Part shown: in pieces, positions 8,805 to 24,989 of the stretch
How the letters are laid out: the number at the start of each line of letters is the position of its first letter
How positions within the stretch are numbered: position 1 is the stretch's first letter
DNA from: Candidatus Freyarchaeota archaeon
GTDB lineage: Archaea > Asgardarchaeota > Jordiarchaeia > Jordiarchaeales > Jordiarchaeaceae
Length of the DNA stretch: 27,324 bases
Reading direction: 5' to 3'
Assembly (NCBI GenBank): GCA_030587365.2
Contig: JAUQZE020000364.1
Location: 1 to 27,324, forward strand
Position numbers and translations under genes: made by a program
The notes under the pieces: model-generated
Told to the model about the DNA's origin: nothing
The model's database searches: none
The model's input: the letters and a program-made list of their open reading frames with translations, nothing else

Positions 8805-9101
8805 CTATATTTTTCCATCTTTAATCAAATCTAGCGCCTTTTCGACTTTTTTGTTATACTTTAAAACCTTATTCCTAACCTCTTCTTTGCTGGGAGCTGC
8901 TACAATTTTTCCGTTCTCAGCGTTCACTATTATTTCTCCCACATCCCCAATGTATTTTCCAAGGGCGATATGTTGATAGCCAAATATGGCTTTCCAGTAC
9001 CCCTCATCTAAGTAGAGTTTGCGTAACTTGAAAACGAGACCATAATTATCAACTATATACGTTCCAATGATTTTCTTAACATCAGATGCTTCAATGGGCA
9101 T
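8805..9101 (-). CDS. Hypothetical protein (98 aa)
   Basis: Track ORF 8805..9110. Start moved to ATG 9101 (MPIEASDV...), with GGTGAT 4 nt upstream (plus 9106-9111 atcacc). No family recognised. Confidence 0.55.
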   Translation of the reverse strand: MPIEASDVKKIIGTYIVDNYGLVFKLRKLYLDEGYWKAIFGYQHIALGKYIGDVGEIIVNAENGKIVAAPSKEEVRNKVLKYNKKVEKALDLIKDGKI

Positions 9102-9657: not shown

Positions 9658-11661
9658 TTAAGTTAGATGTTTACTGACGTATACCATATTATCTTCTACT
9701 TTTACCATTCCTGCTCTTTCAAGCCAAGCAAGATTGGCGCGTACTTGGACTGGAGCTATTCCCGTCGCTTTAATCAGGCTATCTATGCTGATTTTTTTGA
9801 GGCTTTCAATTATAAAGTATATTTTGAACCGAGGATCAAGTACCATGGCCTCCCTGTATTTCTCTAATTGTTCTTCGCGAATCTTCTTTTCTCTTTCAAG
9901 TTCTTCTTTCATTTTTTCCATTTCTTTAGCTTTAGTCTCAAGCTCCTTAACTTTGGCTTCTATCTCATCCTTCCTAACAAATATTTGCTTCTGGATTATT
10001 TGCATCTCGTCTTTTAGCGCTTTTATTTCTTCTTCCTTCAAGCGCAATTGGCTTTCCTTTTGTCTGATTAAAGCTGCGTTGCCCTCAATGTCACTTTTCA
10101 AGTTTTCGATTTCAGAGCGCAGTCCTGCAGCGTCACTCTCAAGTTGCTCTAAGAGCTTTTGGGCGTCTCTAAGCCTATCTTCCTTAAGTTCCAAGTCTTT
10201 GCGGCTATCCTCAATTAGGCTTTTTAGCCTTTCTACTTCTCTTTCTTTCAGTTTGAGCATATTTGCCCCTTCGGCTATGAAGGCGTCTCTCTCTTTAACC
10301 ATGCTCTCCAGGTTTTTGATTTGCTGGTTAAATTTGGACAGCTCAAGCTGTGCACCCTCCAATTTCTCCTCTAGTTCCGCTGCTCTCCCTCTTTCAGTTT
10401 CAAGTGTCATCTGAAGTCTTGACAGCTCTTTGCTTGTGGACTCCAACTCAAATCTTACTTTTTCCAGCTCCTCCCTCTTTGCGGTTAACTCTTTTTCTTT
10501 TTCTTGAAGTTCTTTGCTCTTTGCCGCAAGCTGGGTGTTAGTTACTTCTAAGGCCTTCTCCCTCTCTAAAAGATATTTGGTTCTCTCATCCAGCATCTTC
10601 TCTTTTTCTTTAAGTTGGGAGTTAAGTTCCTGTATGCGGGCTCTAGCTTCTGCTTCCTCCTCCTCAAGTTTTTTAGCCTCTAACCGTGCCTTTTCATATT
10701 TTTCTAACAGATCTCCCGAGCGACTTTTTTCTTCGTCCAACAATTTCTTTAGATTATTATACTCCTGCCGCGCGTTCTCAAGTTCTTTTTCGATTTTTTC
10801 TAGGCTGACTCGTTTTTGGTCCAGTTCACGGGTTTTTTCTTCTAATAATTTTTCTCTCTCTTTGAGCTTTTCACTAGTTTCTTCGAAAATTTTCTCTCTT
10901 TCAAGAAGCTGGCTGTTTAGCTCCTCCACTCTCTGTCTAACTTCCTTCTCCTTACTCTCAAGTTTTTTAATTTCTTGCTCCGCGTTTTCGAGTTTTTCAA
11001 GAAGCGTTCGGGACTTCAGTTTTTCCTCCTCATATTTCTCTAAAGCAGACTTCATTTGGGATTCTACAGAATCCAACTCTGCTCTTTTCTGTTCTAGGCT
11101 GCTCTTTACCTCTTCTAATTCTCTTCTCCTAGTTTCCAGCTCTCTGTCTTTTTCTTCGAGTTCCTTTACCTTTTCTACTAAGGCTAGAGTGTTCTTTTTC
11201 AAAAGGGCTTCTCGCTCCGCGAGTTGCTTATCAAACTGTCTAATTGTTTCATTAACTTTTTCCCTCTCTCCTTCAAGAACGGTAGAAAAATTTTTGGCGA
11301 ACTTGTTTATAGCTTCTCTAAAGACTTGCATTTCACCTTCAATAGCATTGGAGAGATTTTGCATGGCTTGTTCTCTAACTTCATCAACGACTTCTGATAC
11401 CGTGTCAACAAATGTGTATTTTATTAGTTCTGAAGCAAATCGAATGTGAACCTTAGCAACTAAACGCTCACTCACTAAATCCTTCATATTAAGGATATTC
11501 TCCTTTAAATTCTCCAAACTTCCTGAAATCGCAGCATCCAACCCAAGTCTTACATCGTCTACCGCAGATTCCAAGTCGCTAAGGTTTTTACGCAGCAAAT
11601 CAGCAGAATAGAAACCCTCAACCTTTAAATCACCTGCTTTTGAACGATTTTCTTCCTGCAT
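9658..11661 (-). CDS. Large coiled-coil protein (667 aa) with internal ~100-aa tandem repeats and a C-terminal winged-helix-like domain
   Basis: About 450 aa of heptad-like E/K/L-rich sequence. Repeat units share ...EKYEEEKLKSRTLLEKLENAEQEIKKLESKEKEVRQRVEELNSQLLEREKIFEE... versus ...EKSRSGDLLEKYEKARLEAKKLEEEEAEARARIQELNSQLKEKEKMLDE.... The C-terminus ISIDSLIKATGIAPVQVRANLAWLERAGMVKVEDNMVYV looks like a wHTH. AGGAG Shine-Dalgarno upstream. Confidence 0.8.
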   Translation of the reverse strand: MQEENRSKAGDLKVEGFYSADLLRKNLSDLESAVDDVRLGLDAAISGSLENLKENILNMKDLVSERLVAKVHIRFASELIKYTFVDTVSEVVDEVREQAMQNLSNAIEGEMQVFREAINKFAKNFSTVLEGEREKVNETIRQFDKQLAEREALLKKNTLALVEKVKELEEKDRELETRRRELEEVKSSLEQKRAELDSVESQMKSALEKYEEEKLKSRTLLEKLENAEQEIKKLESKEKEVRQRVEELNSQLLEREKIFEETSEKLKEREKLLEEKTRELDQKRVSLEKIEKELENARQEYNNLKKLLDEEKSRSGDLLEKYEKARLEAKKLEEEEAEARARIQELNSQLKEKEKMLDERTKYLLEREKALEVTNTQLAAKSKELQEKEKELTAKREELEKVRFELESTSKELSRLQMTLETERGRAAELEEKLEGAQLELSKFNQQIKNLESMVKERDAFIAEGANMLKLKEREVERLKSLIEDSRKDLELKEDRLRDAQKLLEQLESDAAGLRSEIENLKSDIEGNAALIRQKESQLRLKEEEIKALKDEMQIIQKQIFVRKDEIEAKVKELETKAKEMEKMKEELEREKKIREEQLEKYREAMVLDPRFKIYFIIESLKKISIDSLIKATGIAPVQVRANLAWLERAGMVKVEDNMVYVSKHLT

Positions 11662-23536: not shown

Positions 23537-23716
23537 AATAACCACTTCTCAAAAGTAAAAACTACAAATCAATAGACGAACAGCATTCAGACAACCACAG
23601 AGACCAACGGATAACACTAACAAACTTTTGAACGAAATACTTTATATTTTTTATTCCTACCTACCCTCATCCGACACTATTTTAAGTCCAAATCCATCAG
23701 AATTATAGCAAGGTAG

Positions 23717-23882
23717 TGGCGGGCTGCGCGAGATTTGAATTCGCAAGCCCTGACAAGGGTCAAGGGCTACTCGCGACCACCTGGTTAAAAGCATCACCCT
23801 TCGGAGGAAAACCTGCGAAGTCAGGCGCTCTACCTAGCTCCTCGGCTAAACGTTTTCCGTCGCGCCTCTGAGCTAGCAGCCC
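23717..23882 (-). tRNA. tRNA-Lys(UUU) interrupted by three BHB introns, at 23838-23867 (D-loop, 30 nt), 23793-23821 (anticodon stem 30/31, 29 nt) and 23740-23769 (T-arm 53/54, 30 nt). CCA is encoded.
   Basis: Spliced product: GGGCTGC TA GCTC AGCTAGGTA GAGC G CCTGG CTTTTAA CCAGG TGGTC GCGAG TTCAAAT CTCGC GCAGCCC G CCA (77 nt, canonical cloverleaf). Each intron is bounded by two 3-nt bulges separated by a 4-bp helix, for example CGCC/GGTG for the 30/31 intron and CGCG/TGCG for the 53/54 intron. Confidence 0.85.
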
Positions 23883-24048
23883 GCACATTCAGAGCAAAGT
23901 AAAATAATCTTTAGTAACTTATATTCTTTATCCTTTTAATATTCTAAAGCGTTATTTCTGAGTTTCTGTTTCGTCCTAGAACCATTGAAATAGTCCTCAT
24001 TCTAAAAAATAATTTTTTGTCAGTTTTTTCTTAAGGAGAATTAAGTAT

Positions 24049-24184
24049 TGGCGCCCAAGCCGAGATTTGAATTCCCGCCACAATACACGTATTGTTGAGG
24101 TCTCGGGTTCCCGCCATAAAACGACCCGTTTTATGTCCACGACGTGACAGGCCGCGATGATAGGCCGGGCTACACCACTTGGGC
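24049..24184 (-). tRNA. tRNA-Asp(GUC) interrupted by two BHB introns, at 24109-24136 (variable loop 45/46, 28 nt) and 24072-24101 (T-arm 53/54, 30 nt). CCA is encoded.
   Basis: Spliced product: GCCCAAG TG GTGT AGCCCGGCCTA TCAT C GCGGC CTGTCAC GTCGT GGAC CCGAG TTCAAAT CTCGG CTTGGGC G CCA (78 nt). It has the G73 discriminator and 4-nt variable loop typical of tRNA-Asp. The 4-bp BHB helices are TCGT/GCGG and CCCG/CGGG. Confidence 0.83.
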
Positions 24185-24448
24185 GCTCGCGTGATTGACT
24201 AGTTTTAGTGTAAAAATATAAATTTTTCTATCGCATTGTCCCCTTACAATAAAAAACATGCCTAAAATTTCGTGCATTTTTGAGTTATCCCCATTAATTC
24301 TTGGAAATTTTAAAGAAATCGTGTATCAAACGTCAAAAATTCGTCAGGTTAGAGAGCTCTAGTAAAAAATTTATGTGGCGCAAACATATCTGCTTGATAA
24401 ATTCCTTTTTACTTTTGTGAATGTAGGTTAAGTCTTGCTAGAAGTTAG

Positions 24449-24461
24449 AAATATTTATATT
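24449..24461 (+). promoter_or_regulatory. TATA-box-like element (AAATATTTATATT) for the permuted 5S transcript
   Basis: It lies ~25-30 nt upstream of the first base of the processing helix (24483/24484). Similar TTTATAT-type elements precede the tRNA-Asp and tRNA-Lys genes on the other strand. Confidence 0.5.
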
Positions 24462-24483
24462 TCGGCACTGCGTGTGGGTTCTT

Positions 24484-24633
24484 GGCGTCGCTGCGTGAAA
24501 GTCAAATCTATACACGATTCGGTGAGTACTGCTCTCCGCGAGGGACCGGGAAAACCGAATACTGGCATCTCGGTGCCGGTCATAGTGTATAGTGAACTAC
24601 CCGTTCTCATCCCGAACACGGAACAGCGACGCC
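24484..24633 (+). other. Precursor of the permuted 5S rRNA, including the BHB processing helix
   Basis: GGCGTCGCTG (24484-93) pairs perfectly with CAGCGACGCC (24624-33). CGTG (24494-97) pairs with CACG (24617-20). The 3-nt bulges AAA (24498-500) and GAA (24621-23) lie on opposite strands. Confidence 0.8.
24500..24622 (+). rRNA. Circularly permuted 5S rRNA. The gene order is 3' two-thirds, then hexaloop, then 5' third.
   Basis: Rotating the sequence gives TGCCGGTCATAGTGTATAGTGAACTACCCGTTCTCATCCCGAACACGGAAGTCAAATCTATACACGATTCGGTGAGTACTGCTCTCCGCGAGGGACCGGGAAAACCGAATACTGGCA. This aligns block by block with archaeal 5S consensus strings (GGTCATAG, CCCG..CATCCCGAAC.CGGAAGT.AA, GTACTG, GCGAG, GGGAA). 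Helix I (ACTGGCA/TGCCGGT) is capped by TCTCGG at 24568-73. Confidence 0.82.
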
Positions 24634-24647
24634 ACTCCTCCCTTTGC

Positions 24648-24660
24648 TTTTTTAATTTTT
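24648..24660 (+). terminator. Oligo-T terminator (T6 AA T5) downstream of the 5S precursor
   Basis: TTTTTTAATTTTT begins 15 nt after the processing helix ends. Archaeal RNA polymerase terminates at T-runs. Confidence 0.5.
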
Positions 24661-24781
24661 ATGGCATTCTCTATCTATGTTCCCTTATTGTGGCTTGAGA
24701 GAAATGGAAACAAAAACTTTATGTAACTCTTGTGTATAATTTTCTATACACTCCAAATAGTTTACCGTTTCCCATTTAGGT

Positions 24782-24989
24782 GGGGACGTAGTGTAGTCAG
24801 TGTTGTTCAAAACATGTTTGTGGTTTTGAACGCGACTAGGCAGCACGGCAGGCTCCAGAGGCTGTGAATATTGGCTGAGCTGACCAGAAGATGATGAACT
24901 TCTGGAGCAGTGAGCCAGAGAGACTTGCTAGTCGTGAGTTCAAAGTGGAGAAACAATGTTTCTCTATGGAAATCTCACCGTCCCCACCA
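24782..24989 (+). tRNA. tRNA-Trp(CCA) interrupted by three BHB introns, at 24801-24839 (D-loop, 39 nt), 24859-24922 (canonical 37/38, 64 nt) and 24945-24972 (T-loop 59/60, 28 nt). CCA is encoded.
   Basis: Spliced product: GGGGACG TA GTGT AGTCAGGCA GCAC G GCAGG CTCCAGA CTTGC TAGTC GTGAG TTCAAAT CTCAC CGTCCCC A CCA (77 nt). BHB central helices are AGTC/GACT (D-loop), CTCC/AGAG with one C-A mismatch (37/38) and TTCA/TGGA (59/60). Each is flanked by 3-nt bulges and an intron hairpin. Confidence 0.87.
24859..24922 (+). ncRNA. Box C/D guide RNA embedded in the tRNA-Trp 37/38 intron; predicted to guide 2'-O-methylation of C34 of its own tRNA
   Basis: D' CUGA (24880-83) is followed by a 7-nt spacer and C' AUGAUGA (24891-97). 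The 12-nt guide ACTTCTGGAGCA (24898-909) precedes a D-like GUGA (24910-13). A degenerate C box, GUGAAUA (24864-70), could covary with GUGA. TCTGGAGC is the reverse complement of tRNA positions 31-38 (GCTCCAGA), and the N+5 rule lands on C34. Confidence 0.65.

What the first reader, a model, noticed from the sequence alone, without database searches (positions are those of the whole stretch)
23717..24989. Nine BHB substrates in 1.3 kb: every stable-RNA gene in the island needs the splicing endonuclease
Three tRNA genes carry 8 introns in total, 7 of them at non-canonical positions: D-loop twice, 30/31, 45/46, 53/54 twice and 59/60. The 5S gene adds one further BHB.

For each intron I could draw two 3-nt bulges on opposite strands separated by a 4-bp helix. 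Cutting after the second bulge nucleotide yields a canonical 77-78 nt cloverleaf in every case. This internal consistency across nine independent sites argues that the motif calls are real.

Such density implies a broad-specificity endonuclease, as non-canonical positions require in Crenarchaeota-type systems. It also suggests that BHB processing has been co-opted beyond tRNA in this lineage.

The two 53/54 introns are both exactly 30 nt, and each ends in a mimic of the 5' T-stem strand (GCGAA versus GCGAG; GGGAA versus the exon CCGAG). They share no other sequence, so they are probably shaped by the structural constraint rather than by recent duplication.
Basis: partly seen in the sequence, partly recalled or inferred. 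Interest (0 to 1): 0.65.

Follow-up and report, generated by a model that had tools for sequence, protein, structure and literature searches.

The report
Permuted 5S gene, intron-rich tRNAs
In this Asgard archaeon three tRNA genes are broken by eight introns (already known for the lineage), and the neighbouring 5S ribosomal RNA gene is encoded back-to-front, so the tRNA-splicing machinery must cut it out and join its ends into a 123-nt circle, which I could not find reported for any archaeon.

Summary
Window 23717-24989 carries tRNA-Lys(UUU) with 3 introns, tRNA-Asp(GUC) with 2, tRNA-Trp(CCA) with 3, and a 5S gene, and all nine junctions have bulge-helix-bulge (BHB) geometry. Standard tools find none of the four genes.

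Splicing at the BHB cuts gives 77-78 nt cloverleaves. They align colinearly with intron-less tRNA-Asp and tRNA-Lys at the same place upstream of rpoB in other archaea.

The organism is a hot-spring Jordarchaeia/Freyarchaeia (Asgard) archaeon. Extreme tRNA-intron density is already published for this group.

The new part is the 5S. It is not intron-bearing but circularly permuted: the 3' two-thirds come first, then a tetraloop closing helix I, then the 5' third. A 10-bp leader/trailer helix builds the BHB.

Metatranscriptome contigs show the predicted back-splice junction as closed circles: 123 nt for this species (2 runs) and 122 nt for the Freyarchaeia orthologue (4 runs, zero flank coverage). 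Seven DNA runs lack it.

A metagenome scan found four diverged permuted 5S genes, including a Njordarchaeales-like lineage, with strong covariation. Hermodarchaeota keep a normal 5S.

Whether the ribosomal form stays circular is inferred, not shown.

The parts
23717..23882 (-). tRNA-Lys(UUU) gene, CCA encoded. Exons 23882-23868, 23837-23822, 23792-23770, 23739-23717.
   Evidence: The spliced 77-nt product is called tRNA-Lys(ttt) by ARAGORN. It aligns colinearly with intron-less tRNA-Lys genes of the syntenic loci. The L001 orthologue has the same 3 introns.
23838..23867 (-). Lys intron 1, D-loop (15/16), 30 nt, relaxed BHB (H 3/4, inner helix 3 bp, outer helix 3 bp)
23793..23821 (-). Lys intron 2, 30/31, 29 nt, strict BHB with both flanking helices (H 4/4, inner 5 bp, outer 4 bp)
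23740..23769 (-). Lys intron 3, 53/54, 30 nt, BHB with inner helix only (H CGCG/UGCG 4/4, inner 6 bp)
24049..24184 (-). tRNA-Asp(GUC) gene, CCA encoded. Exons 24184-24137, 24108-24102, 24071-24049.
   Evidence: The spliced 78-nt product is called tRNA-Asp(gtc). It aligns colinearly with intron-less orthologues. The spliced product differs from L001's at 1 of 78 positions.
24109..24136 (-). Asp intron 1, 45/46, 28 nt (H 4/4 including two G-U pairs, inner helix 9 bp)
24072..24101 (-). Asp intron 2, 53/54, 30 nt (H CCCG/CGGG 4/4)
24454..24461 (+). TATA-like box TTTATATT, 23 nt upstream of the 5S leader helix, conserved in L001
   Evidence: Read directly from the sequence; conserved in the window/L001 alignment. 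That it is a promoter is inferred.
24484..24633 (+). Precursor of the circularly permuted 5S rRNA (leader helix, permuted 5S body, trailer helix)
   Evidence: Rfam 5S model positions 1-51 map to 24572-24623 and positions about 46-120 map to 24495-24570. The MFE fold has z = -4.2 and contains the leader/trailer helix and the closed helix I. The covariance model R1 scores 162 bits.
24484..24493 (+). Leader strand GGCGUCGCUG of the outer BHB helix. It pairs with 24624-24633 (CAGCGACGCC).
   Evidence: Across the family 9 of 11 pairs of this helix show changes on both sides.
24494..24500 (+). BHB, upstream half: central-helix strand CGUG (24494-24497) and bulge AA|A (cut after 24499)
   Evidence: The cut position agrees with the RNA contigs.
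24500..24622 (+). 5S rRNA body, 123 nt. Order: helix II 3' strand, helices V/IV with loop E, helix I 3' strand, cap, helix I 5' strand, helix II 5' strand, helix III with loop C. The ends are joined 24622 to 24500, giving ...CACGGA|AGUCAAAU...
   Evidence: X8 has a 125-nt contig equal to 24499-24623 and a 58-nt junction contig. X25 has a 153-nt contig, which is a 123-nt circle plus the k-1 overlap. The de-permuted sequence folds into the 5S Y shape.
24568..24573 (+). Cap closing helix I: a U-G pair around tetraloop CUCG, at the place where the 5' and 3' ends of an ordinary 5S lie
   Evidence: The closing pair changes from U-G to C-G in L001. The caps in L082, L084, L085 and L086 differ in length and loop but always form a hairpin.
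24617..24633 (+). BHB, downstream half: central-helix strand CACG (24617-24620), bulge GA|A (cut after 24622), and the trailer helix strand (24624-24633)
24782..24989 (+). tRNA-Trp(CCA) gene, CCA encoded. Exons 24782-24800, 24840-24858, 24923-24944, 24973-24989.
   Evidence: The spliced 77-nt product is called tRNA-Trp(cca). The L001 orthologue has the same 3 introns.
24801..24839 (+). Trp intron 1, D-loop (18/19), 39 nt (H AGUC/GACU 4/4). The 3' bulge is effectively 5 nt next to the D-stem, and a competing register exists.
   Evidence: Derived by hand from the register scan. H and flanking-helix counts. The spliced 77-nt product is accepted by ARAGORN.
24859..24922 (+). Trp intron 2, canonical 37/38, 64 nt (H 3/4, outer helix 6 bp, inner helix 4 bp). 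It carries a box C/D sRNA-like element: C-like box 24863-24869, D' 24880-24883, C' 24891-24897, D guide 24898-24909, D (GUGA) 24910-24913.
   Evidence: Rfam sR3 gives 22.9 bits, E = 0.003. The guide pairs with G31-A38 and puts C34 at N+5. The orthologous 67-nt intron is seen as a closed circle in RNA run X30.
24945..24972 (+). Trp intron 3, 59/60 in the T-loop, 28 nt, strict BHB with both flanking helices (H 4/4, inner 9 bp, outer 5 bp)

Best explanation
This is the conserved archaeal 5S / tRNA-Asp / tRNA-Lys cluster upstream of rpoB, plus a tRNA-Trp gene, in a hot-spring Jordarchaeia/Freyarchaeia (Asgard) archaeon. None of its RNA genes can give a functional RNA without the tRNA-splicing endonuclease and ligase.

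tRNAs. The three genes carry 8 BHB introns. These are cut after the second nucleotide of each 3-nt bulge and the exons are joined into 77-78 nt tRNAs. The Trp 37/38 intron is released as a circle and carries a box C/D guide for 2'-O-methylation of C34.

5S. The gene is circularly permuted.
- The transcript starts with a leader. Then come the 3' two-thirds of 5S, a tetraloop that closes helix I, the 5' third of 5S, and a trailer.
- Leader and trailer pair over 10 bp. Together with a 4-bp helix (CGUG/CACG) and two 3-nt bulges they form a BHB.
- The endonuclease cuts at 24499/24500 and 24622/24623.
- A ligase (RtcB is inferred) joins 24622 to 24500. This restores the continuous strand ...GGAAGUCAAAU... 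between helix III and helix II and gives a 123-nt covalently closed 5S.

Shown: the gene order, the BHB, the covariation, the joined ends in RNA and their absence from DNA.
Inferred: which enzymes act, and that the circle with its intact helix-I cap, rather than a re-opened linear form, is what sits in the ribosome.
For: tRNAs:
- Spliced products are accepted as tRNAs.
- Central helix 4/4 at 6 of 8 junctions against 0.56 expected.
- Exons are 93% and introns 74% identical to the L001 orthologues, with the same intron sites.
- Spliced Asp and Lys align colinearly with intron-less orthologues in the syntenic cluster tRNA-Asp / tRNA-Lys / rpoB, preceded by a normal 5S, in six Hadarchaeota, Hydrothermarchaeota and Methanobacteriota loci.
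- A 67-nt circle identical in position to the predicted L001 Trp intron appears in RNA run X30.

5S gene:
- The Rfam 5S model halves map in swapped order.
- The de-permuted sequence folds into the canonical 5S shape; the precursor fold has z = -4.2.
- One BHB register per gene restores GGAAG.

5S RNA:
- Window species: a junction contig (24594-24621 joined to 24499-24528) plus a contig spanning exactly 24499-24623 in X8, and a 153-nt closed-circle contig in X25.
- No joint and one unbranched contig in 7 DNA runs.
- L001 type: a 'goes back 122' joint at the predicted sites in 4 metatranscriptomes from 4 studies, contigs of 151-152 nt, and zero depth in both flanks.

5S family:
- 4 further diverged permuted genes came from a metagenome scan.
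- RNAalifold finds 26 of 51 pairs with compensatory changes.
- 95% of cells are paired against 40-50% when partners are slid; 25 pairs are double-changed against 4-9; 0 of 500 shuffles reach this.
- Model R1 gives 159-183 bits for permuted genes and 32 bits or less for normal 5S genes.
- Published (alpha-beta)2 EndA with the L1 loop in Asgard (PMC5829648).
Against: - All RNA evidence comes from assembled contigs, not raw reads. The ratio of junction-spanning to cap-spanning to linear molecules cannot be measured, so circle and re-opened forms cannot be quantified.
- The only raw-read RNA run (X26) held no reads of this organism.
- No mature tRNA junction was seen in any run. tRNAs are poorly captured by such libraries, so seven of the eight tRNA introns rest on sequence and comparison only.
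- I could not scan a whole genome of the lineage for a second, normal-order 5S gene. The Jordarchaeum MAG paper lists 'a 5S rRNA gene' without details (PMC9723677).
- In the four diverged 5S genes (L082, L084, L085, L086) the central BHB helix is only 3/4.
- The central helix competes with the base of helix III, so the BHB is not in the MFE fold.
- endA, rtcB and archease are not in the window.
Confidence: 0.85

Rival explanations
1. The circle is only an intermediate. As with permuted tRNA genes, the joined RNA is later opened at the helix-I cap, and the ribosome carries an ordinary linear 5S with conventional ends.
For: This is how the known permuted tRNA genes mature (Soma 2007, cited in PMC4267664). 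[quoted passage not shown] Contig data cannot quantify molecules.
Against: - The cap is a conserved, covarying hairpin with stable loops (CUCG, CACG, GCAA, UUCG), not a spacer.
- Complete circles containing both the cap and the junction assemble even at mean depth 3.4-3.7, with no flank coverage. That is unlikely if cap-spanning molecules were rare intermediates.
- No contig ends at the cap.
Confidence: 0.25
2. The 5S RNA is permuted but linear. It is cut at the BHB and mostly left unligated, as in the permuted mitochondrial 5S of brown algae. The observed junction would then be a minor ligated fraction.
For: Brown-algal mitochondrial 5S is permuted in the final product with a closed helix I (PMC4267664). 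Contig depth gives no stoichiometry.
Against: - The break would interrupt the conserved strand between helix III and helix II.
- The junction is assembled in all 6 RNA runs that hold the gene, including runs at about 3.5x depth, where a minor species would drop out.
- Archaeal BHB cleavage products are normally ligated (established knowledge of the EndA/RtcB pathway).
Confidence: 0.08
3. The loci are decaying pseudogenes, or the back-splice signal comes from tandem DNA copies or a reverse-transcription artefact. Functional intact copies would lie elsewhere.
For: Standard tools find no gene here. The whole genome was not available to search.
Against: - Exons are far better conserved than introns, stems show compensatory changes, and TATA-like boxes are conserved.
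- The position is orthologous to the normal genes of other archaea.
- Seven DNA runs show a single unbranched path.
- The same junction appears at the BHB-predicted nucleotide in two species and six RNA runs from six studies.
- In this lineage 92-95% of tRNA genes are interrupted, so intact spares are not the rule (PMC11291895).
Confidence: 0.03

Closest known systems
Circularly permuted tRNA genes (Cyanidioschyzon merolae, Soma et al. 2007, cited in PMC4267664; Thermofilum pendens, from my own knowledge of Chan, Cozen and Lowe 2011)
   Same: The 3' part is encoded upstream of the 5' part. Leader and trailer form a BHB. The splicing endonuclease and a ligase give a circular RNA with the natural strand restored.
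   Different: Here the RNA is 5S rRNA, not a tRNA. The linker is a conserved structured cap on helix I, with no RNase P or tRNase Z sites, and there is no sign that it is opened.
BHB-dependent circular pre-16S/23S rRNA, circularly permuted 23S of Pyrococcus/Thermococcus, and circular 23S in ribosomes (PMC7758197, PMC12918454, bioRxiv 10.64898/2026.03.23.713588)
   Same: A processing stem with a BHB flanks an rRNA, and cutting plus ligation yields a circle. Recent work argues that circular 23S is the mature form.
   Different: Those genes are in normal order, and the circle joins the natural 5' and 3' ends. Here the gene itself is permuted, so ligation is needed to create an internal strand of the molecule. 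PMC12918454 states that circularisation applies to 16S and 23S 'but not 5S'.
Permuted mitochondrial 5S rRNA of brown algae and other stramenopiles (Rfam mtPerm-5S; PMC4267664)
   Same: Helix I is closed by a hairpin instead of holding the termini. Standard 5S models miss the gene.
   Different: There the ends lie at the junction of the alpha and gamma domains and the product stays linear, with no BHB and no ligation. It is organellar, not archaeal.
Multi-intron, non-canonical-position tRNA genes of Thermoproteales and of Atabeyarchaeia/Freyarchaeia (PMC11291895; Sugahara 2008, cited there)
   Same: Several BHB introns per gene in the D-loop, anticodon stem, variable loop and T-arm. They depend on a broad-specificity (alpha-beta)2 endonuclease.
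   Different: Nothing essential. The three genes here are new members, from a hot-spring relative, of an already described phenomenon.
Heterogeneous circular 5S species in Halobacterium and Sulfolobus (PMC12558985, citing Danan 2012)
   Same: Circular RNA molecules containing 5S sequence exist in archaea.
   Different: Those arise from normal-order genes, have variable ends and no BHB, and are interpreted as degradation products. Here one exact, gene-encoded junction is conserved across species.
Box C/D guide in the tRNA-Trp intron of Haloferax and other Euryarchaeota (my own knowledge: Clouet d'Orval 2001; Singh 2004)
   Same: The 37/38 intron of tRNA-Trp carries C/D' and C'/D boxes. A guide places C34 at N+5, and in L001 the D' guide places position 39 at N+5. 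The intron is released as a circle.
   Different: It is found here in an Asgard archaeon. Boxes C and D are degenerate (UGUGAAU, GUGA), and the D' guide has diverged in the window species.

Membership tests
Archaeal BHB tRNA introns | Two 3-nt bulges on opposite strands separated by a 4-bp helix at the exon-intron borders | tested here: met
   The central helix is 4/4 at 6 of 8 junctions and 3/4 at 2 (relaxed forms), each with at least one flanking helix. Chance expectation is 0.56 of 8.
Archaeal BHB tRNA introns | Removal at the bulge cuts restores a canonical cloverleaf tRNA | tested here: met
   ARAGORN calls Lys, Asp and Trp of 77-78 nt in both species. Spliced Asp and Lys are colinear with intron-less orthologues.
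Archaeal BHB tRNA introns | Cleavage and ligation occur in vivo (spliced tRNA or circular intron detectable) | tested here: inconclusive
   Only the Trp 37/38 intron of the L001-type orthologue is seen, as a 67-nt circle. No mature tRNA contigs appear in any run.
Archaeal BHB tRNA introns | The genome encodes a splicing endonuclease able to cut relaxed or non-canonical BHBs, plus RtcB | not tested
   Not in the window. The literature reports (alpha-beta)2 EndA with the L1 loop in Asgard archaea (PMC5829648).
5S rRNA (Rfam RF00001) | Contiguous match to the 5S covariance model above the gathering score (38 bits) | tested here: not met
   No hit at gathering score. There are two partial hits of 22.2 and 13.8 bits in swapped order. 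None of the seven permuted genes passes.
5S rRNA (Rfam RF00001) | Helices I-V and conserved loops C and E are present and foldable as a three-way junction | tested here: met
   The de-permuted sequence folds into the canonical shape by MFE. Helices I, II, IV and V are supported by covariation. Loop C and loop E motifs are invariant.
5S rRNA (Rfam RF00001) | Orthologous genomic position | tested here: met
   A normal 5S (77-102 bits) sits next to tRNA-Asp, tRNA-Lys and rpoB in six other archaeal loci. Here the 5S lies on the opposite strand.
Circularly permuted RNA genes expressed through a BHB | The 3' segment is encoded upstream of the 5' segment, joined by a linker | tested here: met
Circularly permuted RNA genes expressed through a BHB | Leader and trailer form a BHB whose cuts restore the natural sequence | tested here: met
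   The leader/trailer helix covaries at 9 of 11 pairs.
Circularly permuted RNA genes expressed through a BHB | RNA with joined ends exists, and the joint is absent from DNA | tested here: met
   6 RNA runs are positive. 7 DNA runs are negative.
Circularly permuted RNA genes expressed through a BHB | The circle is re-opened at the linker to give the conventional termini | tested here: inconclusive
   There is no contig end at the cap and closed circles assemble at low depth. Contigs cannot exclude a processed fraction.
Box C/D sRNA | C, D', C' and D boxes, and a match to a curated family | tested here: inconclusive
   C' (AUGAUGA) and D' (CUGA) are canonical. C and D are degenerate. Rfam sR3 gives 22.9 bits against a gathering score of 41.
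Box C/D sRNA | A guide of 8 or more bp complementary to a target, with the modified nucleotide at N+5 | tested here: met
   The D guide pairs with G31-A38 (8 bp; 10 bp on the precursor) and puts C34 at N+5. It is identical in both species.

The most novel reading that the evidence does not exclude
In Jordarchaeia/Freyarchaeia and a Njordarchaeales-like Asgard lineage, the only 5S rRNA gene is circularly permuted. The mature ribosomal 5S would then be a covalently closed circle that can be made only by the tRNA-splicing endonuclease and ligase. This would be the first permuted rRNA gene in a cellular (non-organellar) genome and the first ribosome whose 5S depends on RNA splicing enzymes. A likely origin is tandem duplication of a 5S gene that carried a BHB intron.
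Probability: 0.55. Interest if true: 0.9.

Novelty: new variant of a known kind. Interest (0 to 1): 0.8.

Why it matters
- It ties ribosome biogenesis to the tRNA-splicing machinery for 5S. That link was thought not to exist: circularisation has been described for 16S and 23S 'but not 5S'.
- It adds a third class of permuted stable-RNA gene, after tRNA and tmRNA, and does so in the archaeal group closest to eukaryotes.
- It gives a clean natural test of whether a ribosome tolerates, or benefits from, a circular 5S.
- It has a practical consequence. Rfam, ARAGORN and therefore standard annotation pipelines miss these 5S and tRNA genes. Genomes of these lineages will look as if they lack 5S and most tRNAs, and MAG quality standards that require 5S and 18 or more tRNAs will be misapplied. 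The Jordarchaeum MAG was reported with only 6 tRNAs.
- The covariance model built here separates permuted from normal 5S genes by more than 120 bits and could be used for annotation.

Tried and rejected
- ARAGORN and Rfam at gathering thresholds on the window gave nothing.
- My first guess for tRNA-Asp, a 27-nt 45/46 intron with a 5-nt variable loop, was replaced by the 28-nt BHB solution.
- An unbiased scan for BHB geometry returned dozens of chance hits per gene, so the geometry alone is not evidence.
- Taking the top-scoring BHB in each neighbourhood mis-spliced Lys and Trp, because helices slide. The cloverleaf constraint is needed as well.
- The apparent joint 23884 to 24043 in RNA run X8 is not a splice. 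It comes from one 308-nt contig that shares only 20-29 nt stretches with the locus.
- The raw-read RNA run X26 holds no reads of this organism.
- Runs X8, X25 and X27 show no spliced tRNA contigs.
- No RNA run is indexed for the L082-type 5S.
- Metagenome hit L081 is a chance match in GC-rich DNA.
- Njordarchaeales contigs L087-L091, fetched through ribosomal protein S2, have no 5S nearby.
- The intermediate R1 hit in L016 (28 bits) is a normal-order 5S that scores 77 bits against Rfam.
- Placing L082, L084 and L085 by tblastn against the rpoB loci was biased by which genes those loci happen to hold. It was superseded by the S2 search.
- A regex screen of the window for further hidden tRNA 3' ends found only the three known genes.


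Full report
**What is there**

Between 23717 and 24989 the usual tools see nothing. ARAGORN reports no tRNA and Rfam at gathering thresholds reports no RNA family. Reading the sense strands by hand gives three interrupted tRNA genes and a 5S-like gene.

After in-silico splicing ARAGORN accepts all three tRNAs:

| Gene | Strand | Window coordinates | Introns | Spliced length |
|---|---|---|---|---|
| tRNA-Lys(UUU) | - | 23882-23717 | D-loop 15/16, 30/31, 53/54 | 77 nt |
| tRNA-Asp(GUC) | - | 24184-24049 | 45/46, 53/54 | 78 nt |
| tRNA-Trp(CCA) | + | 24782-24989 | D-loop 18/19, 37/38, 59/60 | 77 nt |

All three encode their CCA end.

**Is the BHB claim more than chance?**

I scored the strict geometry: a 4-bp central helix H, 3-nt bulges lying 3' of each H strand, and the cut after the second bulge nucleotide.

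- An unbiased scan shows that this geometry alone, with G-U pairs allowed, occurs dozens of times per gene.
- Restricted to the registers that restore a cloverleaf, H is 4/4 at six of the eight junctions and 3/4 at the other two (Lys D-loop, Trp 37/38).
- The background rate of 4/4 is 2.7%. After allowing for equivalent registers, 0.56 of 8 are expected, P about 3e-6.
- Strict motifs with both flanking helices occur at Lys 30/31 and Trp 59/60. Motifs with H and a long inner helix occur at Lys 53/54 and Asp 45/46. Asp 53/54 and the Trp D-loop intron have a perfect H but only 2-bp flanking helices.

The Trp D-loop intron is the least clean. H (AGUC/GACU) is perfect and gives D-loop AGUCAGGCA. 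However, the 3' bulge is effectively 5 nt, and a competing register carries one covarying pair.

**Organism and comparative evidence**

The neighbouring gene is an unsplit RpoB. It is 89% identical to that of a complete Freyarchaeia chromosome (L001, CP147778.1), 88% to Ca. Jordarchaeum, and 75% to a Jordarchaeales MAG. The DNA itself occurs in hot-spring metagenomes.

L001 carries the whole island in the same order, with all eight introns at the same sites and the same 5S architecture. Exons are 93% identical and introns 74%, and the stems show compensatory changes.

Independent support comes from synteny. Hadarchaeota, Hydrothermarchaeota, Methanobacteriota and Methanofastidiosa loci have intron-less tRNA-Asp(GUC) and tRNA-Lys(UUU) directly upstream of rpoB. 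In six of those loci a normal 5S scoring 77-102 bits precedes them. The spliced products from the window align colinearly with these orthologues; the only gap is 1 nt in the length-variable D-loop of tRNA-Lys. The window therefore holds the orthologous, functional cluster, with every RNA gene interrupted.

**What is already known**

Valentin-Alvarado et al. 2024 (PMC11291895) reported that 92-95% of tRNA genes in Atabeyarchaeia and Freyarchaeia contain introns, often at non-canonical positions, and that more than half have several. Asgard archaea are reported to have the (alpha-beta)2 endonuclease with the L1 loop that confers broad specificity (PMC5829648). The tRNA part of the finding and the enzyme inference are thus correct but not new.

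**The 5S gene is circularly permuted**

A permissive cmscan maps Rfam 5S model positions 1-51 to 24572-24623 and positions about 46-120 to 24495-24570, so the 3' part of 5S comes first. The order on the + strand is:

1. Leader helix, 24484-24493.
2. CGUG, then bulge AA|A.
3. Helix II 3' strand.
4. Helices V/IV with loop E.
5. Helix I 3' strand.
6. Cap U(CUCG)G, 24568-24573.
7. Helix I 5' strand.
8. Helix II 5' strand.
9. Helix III with loop C.
10. CACG, then bulge GA|A.
11. Trailer helix, 24624-24633.

Only one register gives both a BHB (H 4/4, outer helix 10 bp) and the canonical sequence ...CACGGA|AGUCAAAU.... The de-permuted sequence folds by energy alone into the 5S Y shape. The precursor folds with z = -4.2 and contains the leader/trailer helix and the closed helix I. 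The 4-bp H competes with the base of helix III, so the BHB and the mature fold are alternative structures.

**RNA evidence**

For the window species:
- Metatranscriptome X8 contains a contig spanning exactly 24499-24623. It also contains a 58-nt contig that joins 24594-24621 directly to 24499-24528.
- Metatranscriptome X25 contains a 153-nt contig that reads 24499-24621 and then 24499-24528 again. That is a closed 123-nt circle plus the assembler's k-1 overlap.
- Seven DNA runs of the same organism, three of them from the study that produced X8 and X25, show a single unbranched contig through the gene and no joint.

For the Freyarchaeia orthologue:
- Four soil and peat metatranscriptomes from four studies show a 'goes back 122' joint at 8993/8872. 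This equals the predicted cuts within the 2-nt A/A ambiguity.
- The contigs are 151-152 nt, and depth in both flanks is zero.
- Complete circles containing both the junction and the cap assemble even at mean depth 3.4-3.7. This is my main argument that the circle is the abundant form and not a rare intermediate. It remains an inference from contigs.

For the tRNAs:
- Run X30 holds a closed 67-nt circle that coincides with the predicted L001 tRNA-Trp 37/38 intron. This verifies those two splice sites in vivo.
- No run contained mature tRNA junctions. That says nothing either way, because such libraries capture tRNAs poorly.

**A family of permuted 5S genes**

I scanned metagenome contigs with a pattern that demands loop E before the 5' end and loop C. 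It returned six loci:
- L081 is a chance hit.
- L083 is the same species as the window.
- L082, L084, L085 and L086 are diverged permuted 5S genes.

Each diverged gene has an 11-16 bp leader/trailer helix, A-rich 3-nt bulges, a junction that restores GGAAG(C/U)(U/C)AAGC, and a helix I closed by a hairpin. The caps differ: CACG, an extension closed by GCAA, an extension closed by UUCG, and a longer stem with loop UUUAU. Predicted circles are 122-134 nt. In these four genes the BHB register is shifted by one nucleotide and H is 3/4, but the product is the same.

Covariation is strong:
- RNAalifold on the six genes finds 26 of 51 pairs with compensatory changes.
- On 41 pairs, 95% of cells are paired against 40-50% when the partners are slid.
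- 25 pairs have changes on both sides against 4-9 when slid, and 0 of 500 shuffles reach the observed values.
- The leader/trailer helix has 9 of 11 pairs changed on both sides.
- One caveat: the structure tested was derived from the same alignment.

The covariance model R1 scores the seven permuted genes at 159-183 bits and normal 5S genes at 32 bits or less.

Taxonomic spread:
- L086 is a close relative of the Jordarchaeales locus L003.
- L082 carries an Arf-like GTPase, and its S2 protein is 79% identical to Ca. Njordarchaeales proteins.
- L084 and L085 are unplaced; their 5S genes resemble that of L082.
- A Hermodarchaeota locus (L016) has an ordinary 5S.

The trait is therefore lineage-specific within Asgard and present in at least two lineages.

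**Literature on 5S**

Full-text searches for permuted or circular 5S found only two kinds of report. One is the permuted mitochondrial 5S of brown algae, which is linear and has no BHB (PMC4267664). The other is heterogeneous circular 5S fragments in Halobacterium and Sulfolobus, which lack a BHB and are interpreted as degradation products (PMC12558985). A 2026 paper states that circularisation applies to 16S and 23S 'but not 5S' (PMC12918454). Within the limits of that library, a BHB-flanked permuted 5S gene is unreported.

**Mechanism and origin**

- Shown: the gene order, the BHB, the covariation, and exact joined ends in RNA that are absent from DNA.
- Inferred from established knowledge of the archaeal splicing pathway: EndA cuts and RtcB ligates.
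- Inferred from cap conservation and low-depth circles: the closed circle is the mature form.
- Speculative origin: tandem duplication of a 5S gene that carried a BHB intron at the GGAA|G site, followed by loss of the outer halves. The intron halves would become leader and trailer, and the spacer would become the cap. This is the model proposed for permuted tRNA genes.

**Other observations**

The Trp 37/38 intron carries a box C/D element (Rfam sR3, 22.9 bits). Its D guide is identical in both species and places C34 at N+5. In L001 the D' guide places position 39 at N+5; in the window that guide has diverged. Each RNA gene is preceded by a conserved TATA-like box.

**Verdict**

The permuted 5S gene, with its RNA ends joined into a circle, is the valuable result.

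Noticed in passing
window 24859-24922 (boxes at 24863-24869, 24880-24883, 24891-24897, 24910-24913): The canonical tRNA-Trp intron contains a box C/D sRNA-like element. Its D guide (ACUUCUGGAGCA) is identical in L001 and puts C34 of tRNA-Trp at N+5, as in haloarchaeal tRNA-Trp introns. In L001 the D' guide targets position 39, but in the window it has diverged.
   Followed up: yes
L001 8463-8529 (orthologue of window 24859-24922): Peat metatranscriptome X30 holds a 97-nt contig that is a closed 67-nt circle of exactly the predicted tRNA-Trp intron. The C/D-box intron therefore persists as a circular RNA.
   Followed up: partly
window 24043-24071 and 23865-23884: RNA run X8 has a 308-nt contig at the highest depth of the region (83x). 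Its two ends repeat 24043-24071 (tRNA-Asp 3' exon plus 6 nt of trailer), which suggests a 278-nt circle or repeat. It also contains 20 nt identical to the start of tRNA-Lys. The rest matches nothing here, and it is not seen in the DNA runs. Unexplained.
   Followed up: partly
window 24514-24586: X8 also holds a 124-nt contig (depth 57, 7 mismatches) from a third Jordarchaeia/Freyarchaeia-type organism. Its 5S has the same permuted order, and helix II carries compensatory changes (CCCAUGU / ACAUGGG).
   Followed up: partly
L022, L024, L026, L029, L049, L071 (5S, Asp, Lys) and L039 (Asp, Lys), all upstream of rpoB: A cluster of tRNA-Asp(GUC) and tRNA-Lys(UUU) directly upstream of rpoB is conserved across distant archaeal phyla with intron-less genes. 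Six of the seven loci also have a normal 5S just upstream. In the window the 5S lies on the opposite strand, and no rpoH-sized ORF fits between tRNA-Lys and rpoB.
   Followed up: partly
window 24782-24840: The tRNA-Trp D-loop intron has two competing BHB registers. Cuts after sense positions 18 and 57 give a canonical 9-nt D-loop. Cuts after 22 and 54 have a pair that covaries with L001 (U-G to A-U) but would leave a 16-nt D-loop. This may reflect an extended intron helix rather than alternative splicing.
   Followed up: partly
L082, L084, L085, L086 compared with window and L001: The BHB cut sites of the permuted 5S are shifted by one nucleotide between the two groups (GA|A and AA|A versus AA|N and AA|G), yet the ligated product is the same GGAAG. 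This is an example of splice-site sliding without any change in the product.
   Followed up: yes
window 23640-23648, 23908-23925, 24212-24228, 24454-24461, 24716-24725: A/T-rich TATA-like boxes are conserved between the window and L001 upstream of rpoB and of each of the four RNA genes, which suggests separate transcription units. T-runs follow the 5S trailer (24645-24660) and tRNA-Trp.
   Followed up: no
whole island and L001, L082-L086: None of the seven permuted 5S genes reaches Rfam's gathering score, and ARAGORN misses all three tRNAs in the window. Automated annotation of these lineages will under-report 5S and tRNAs. The Jordarchaeum MAG was published with only 6 tRNAs (PMC9723677).
   Followed up: yes
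window 9658-11661 (- strand): A 667-aa ORF has no Pfam match at E <= 0.001. The surrounding genes are shikimate-pathway enzymes and aspartate kinase.
   Followed up: no
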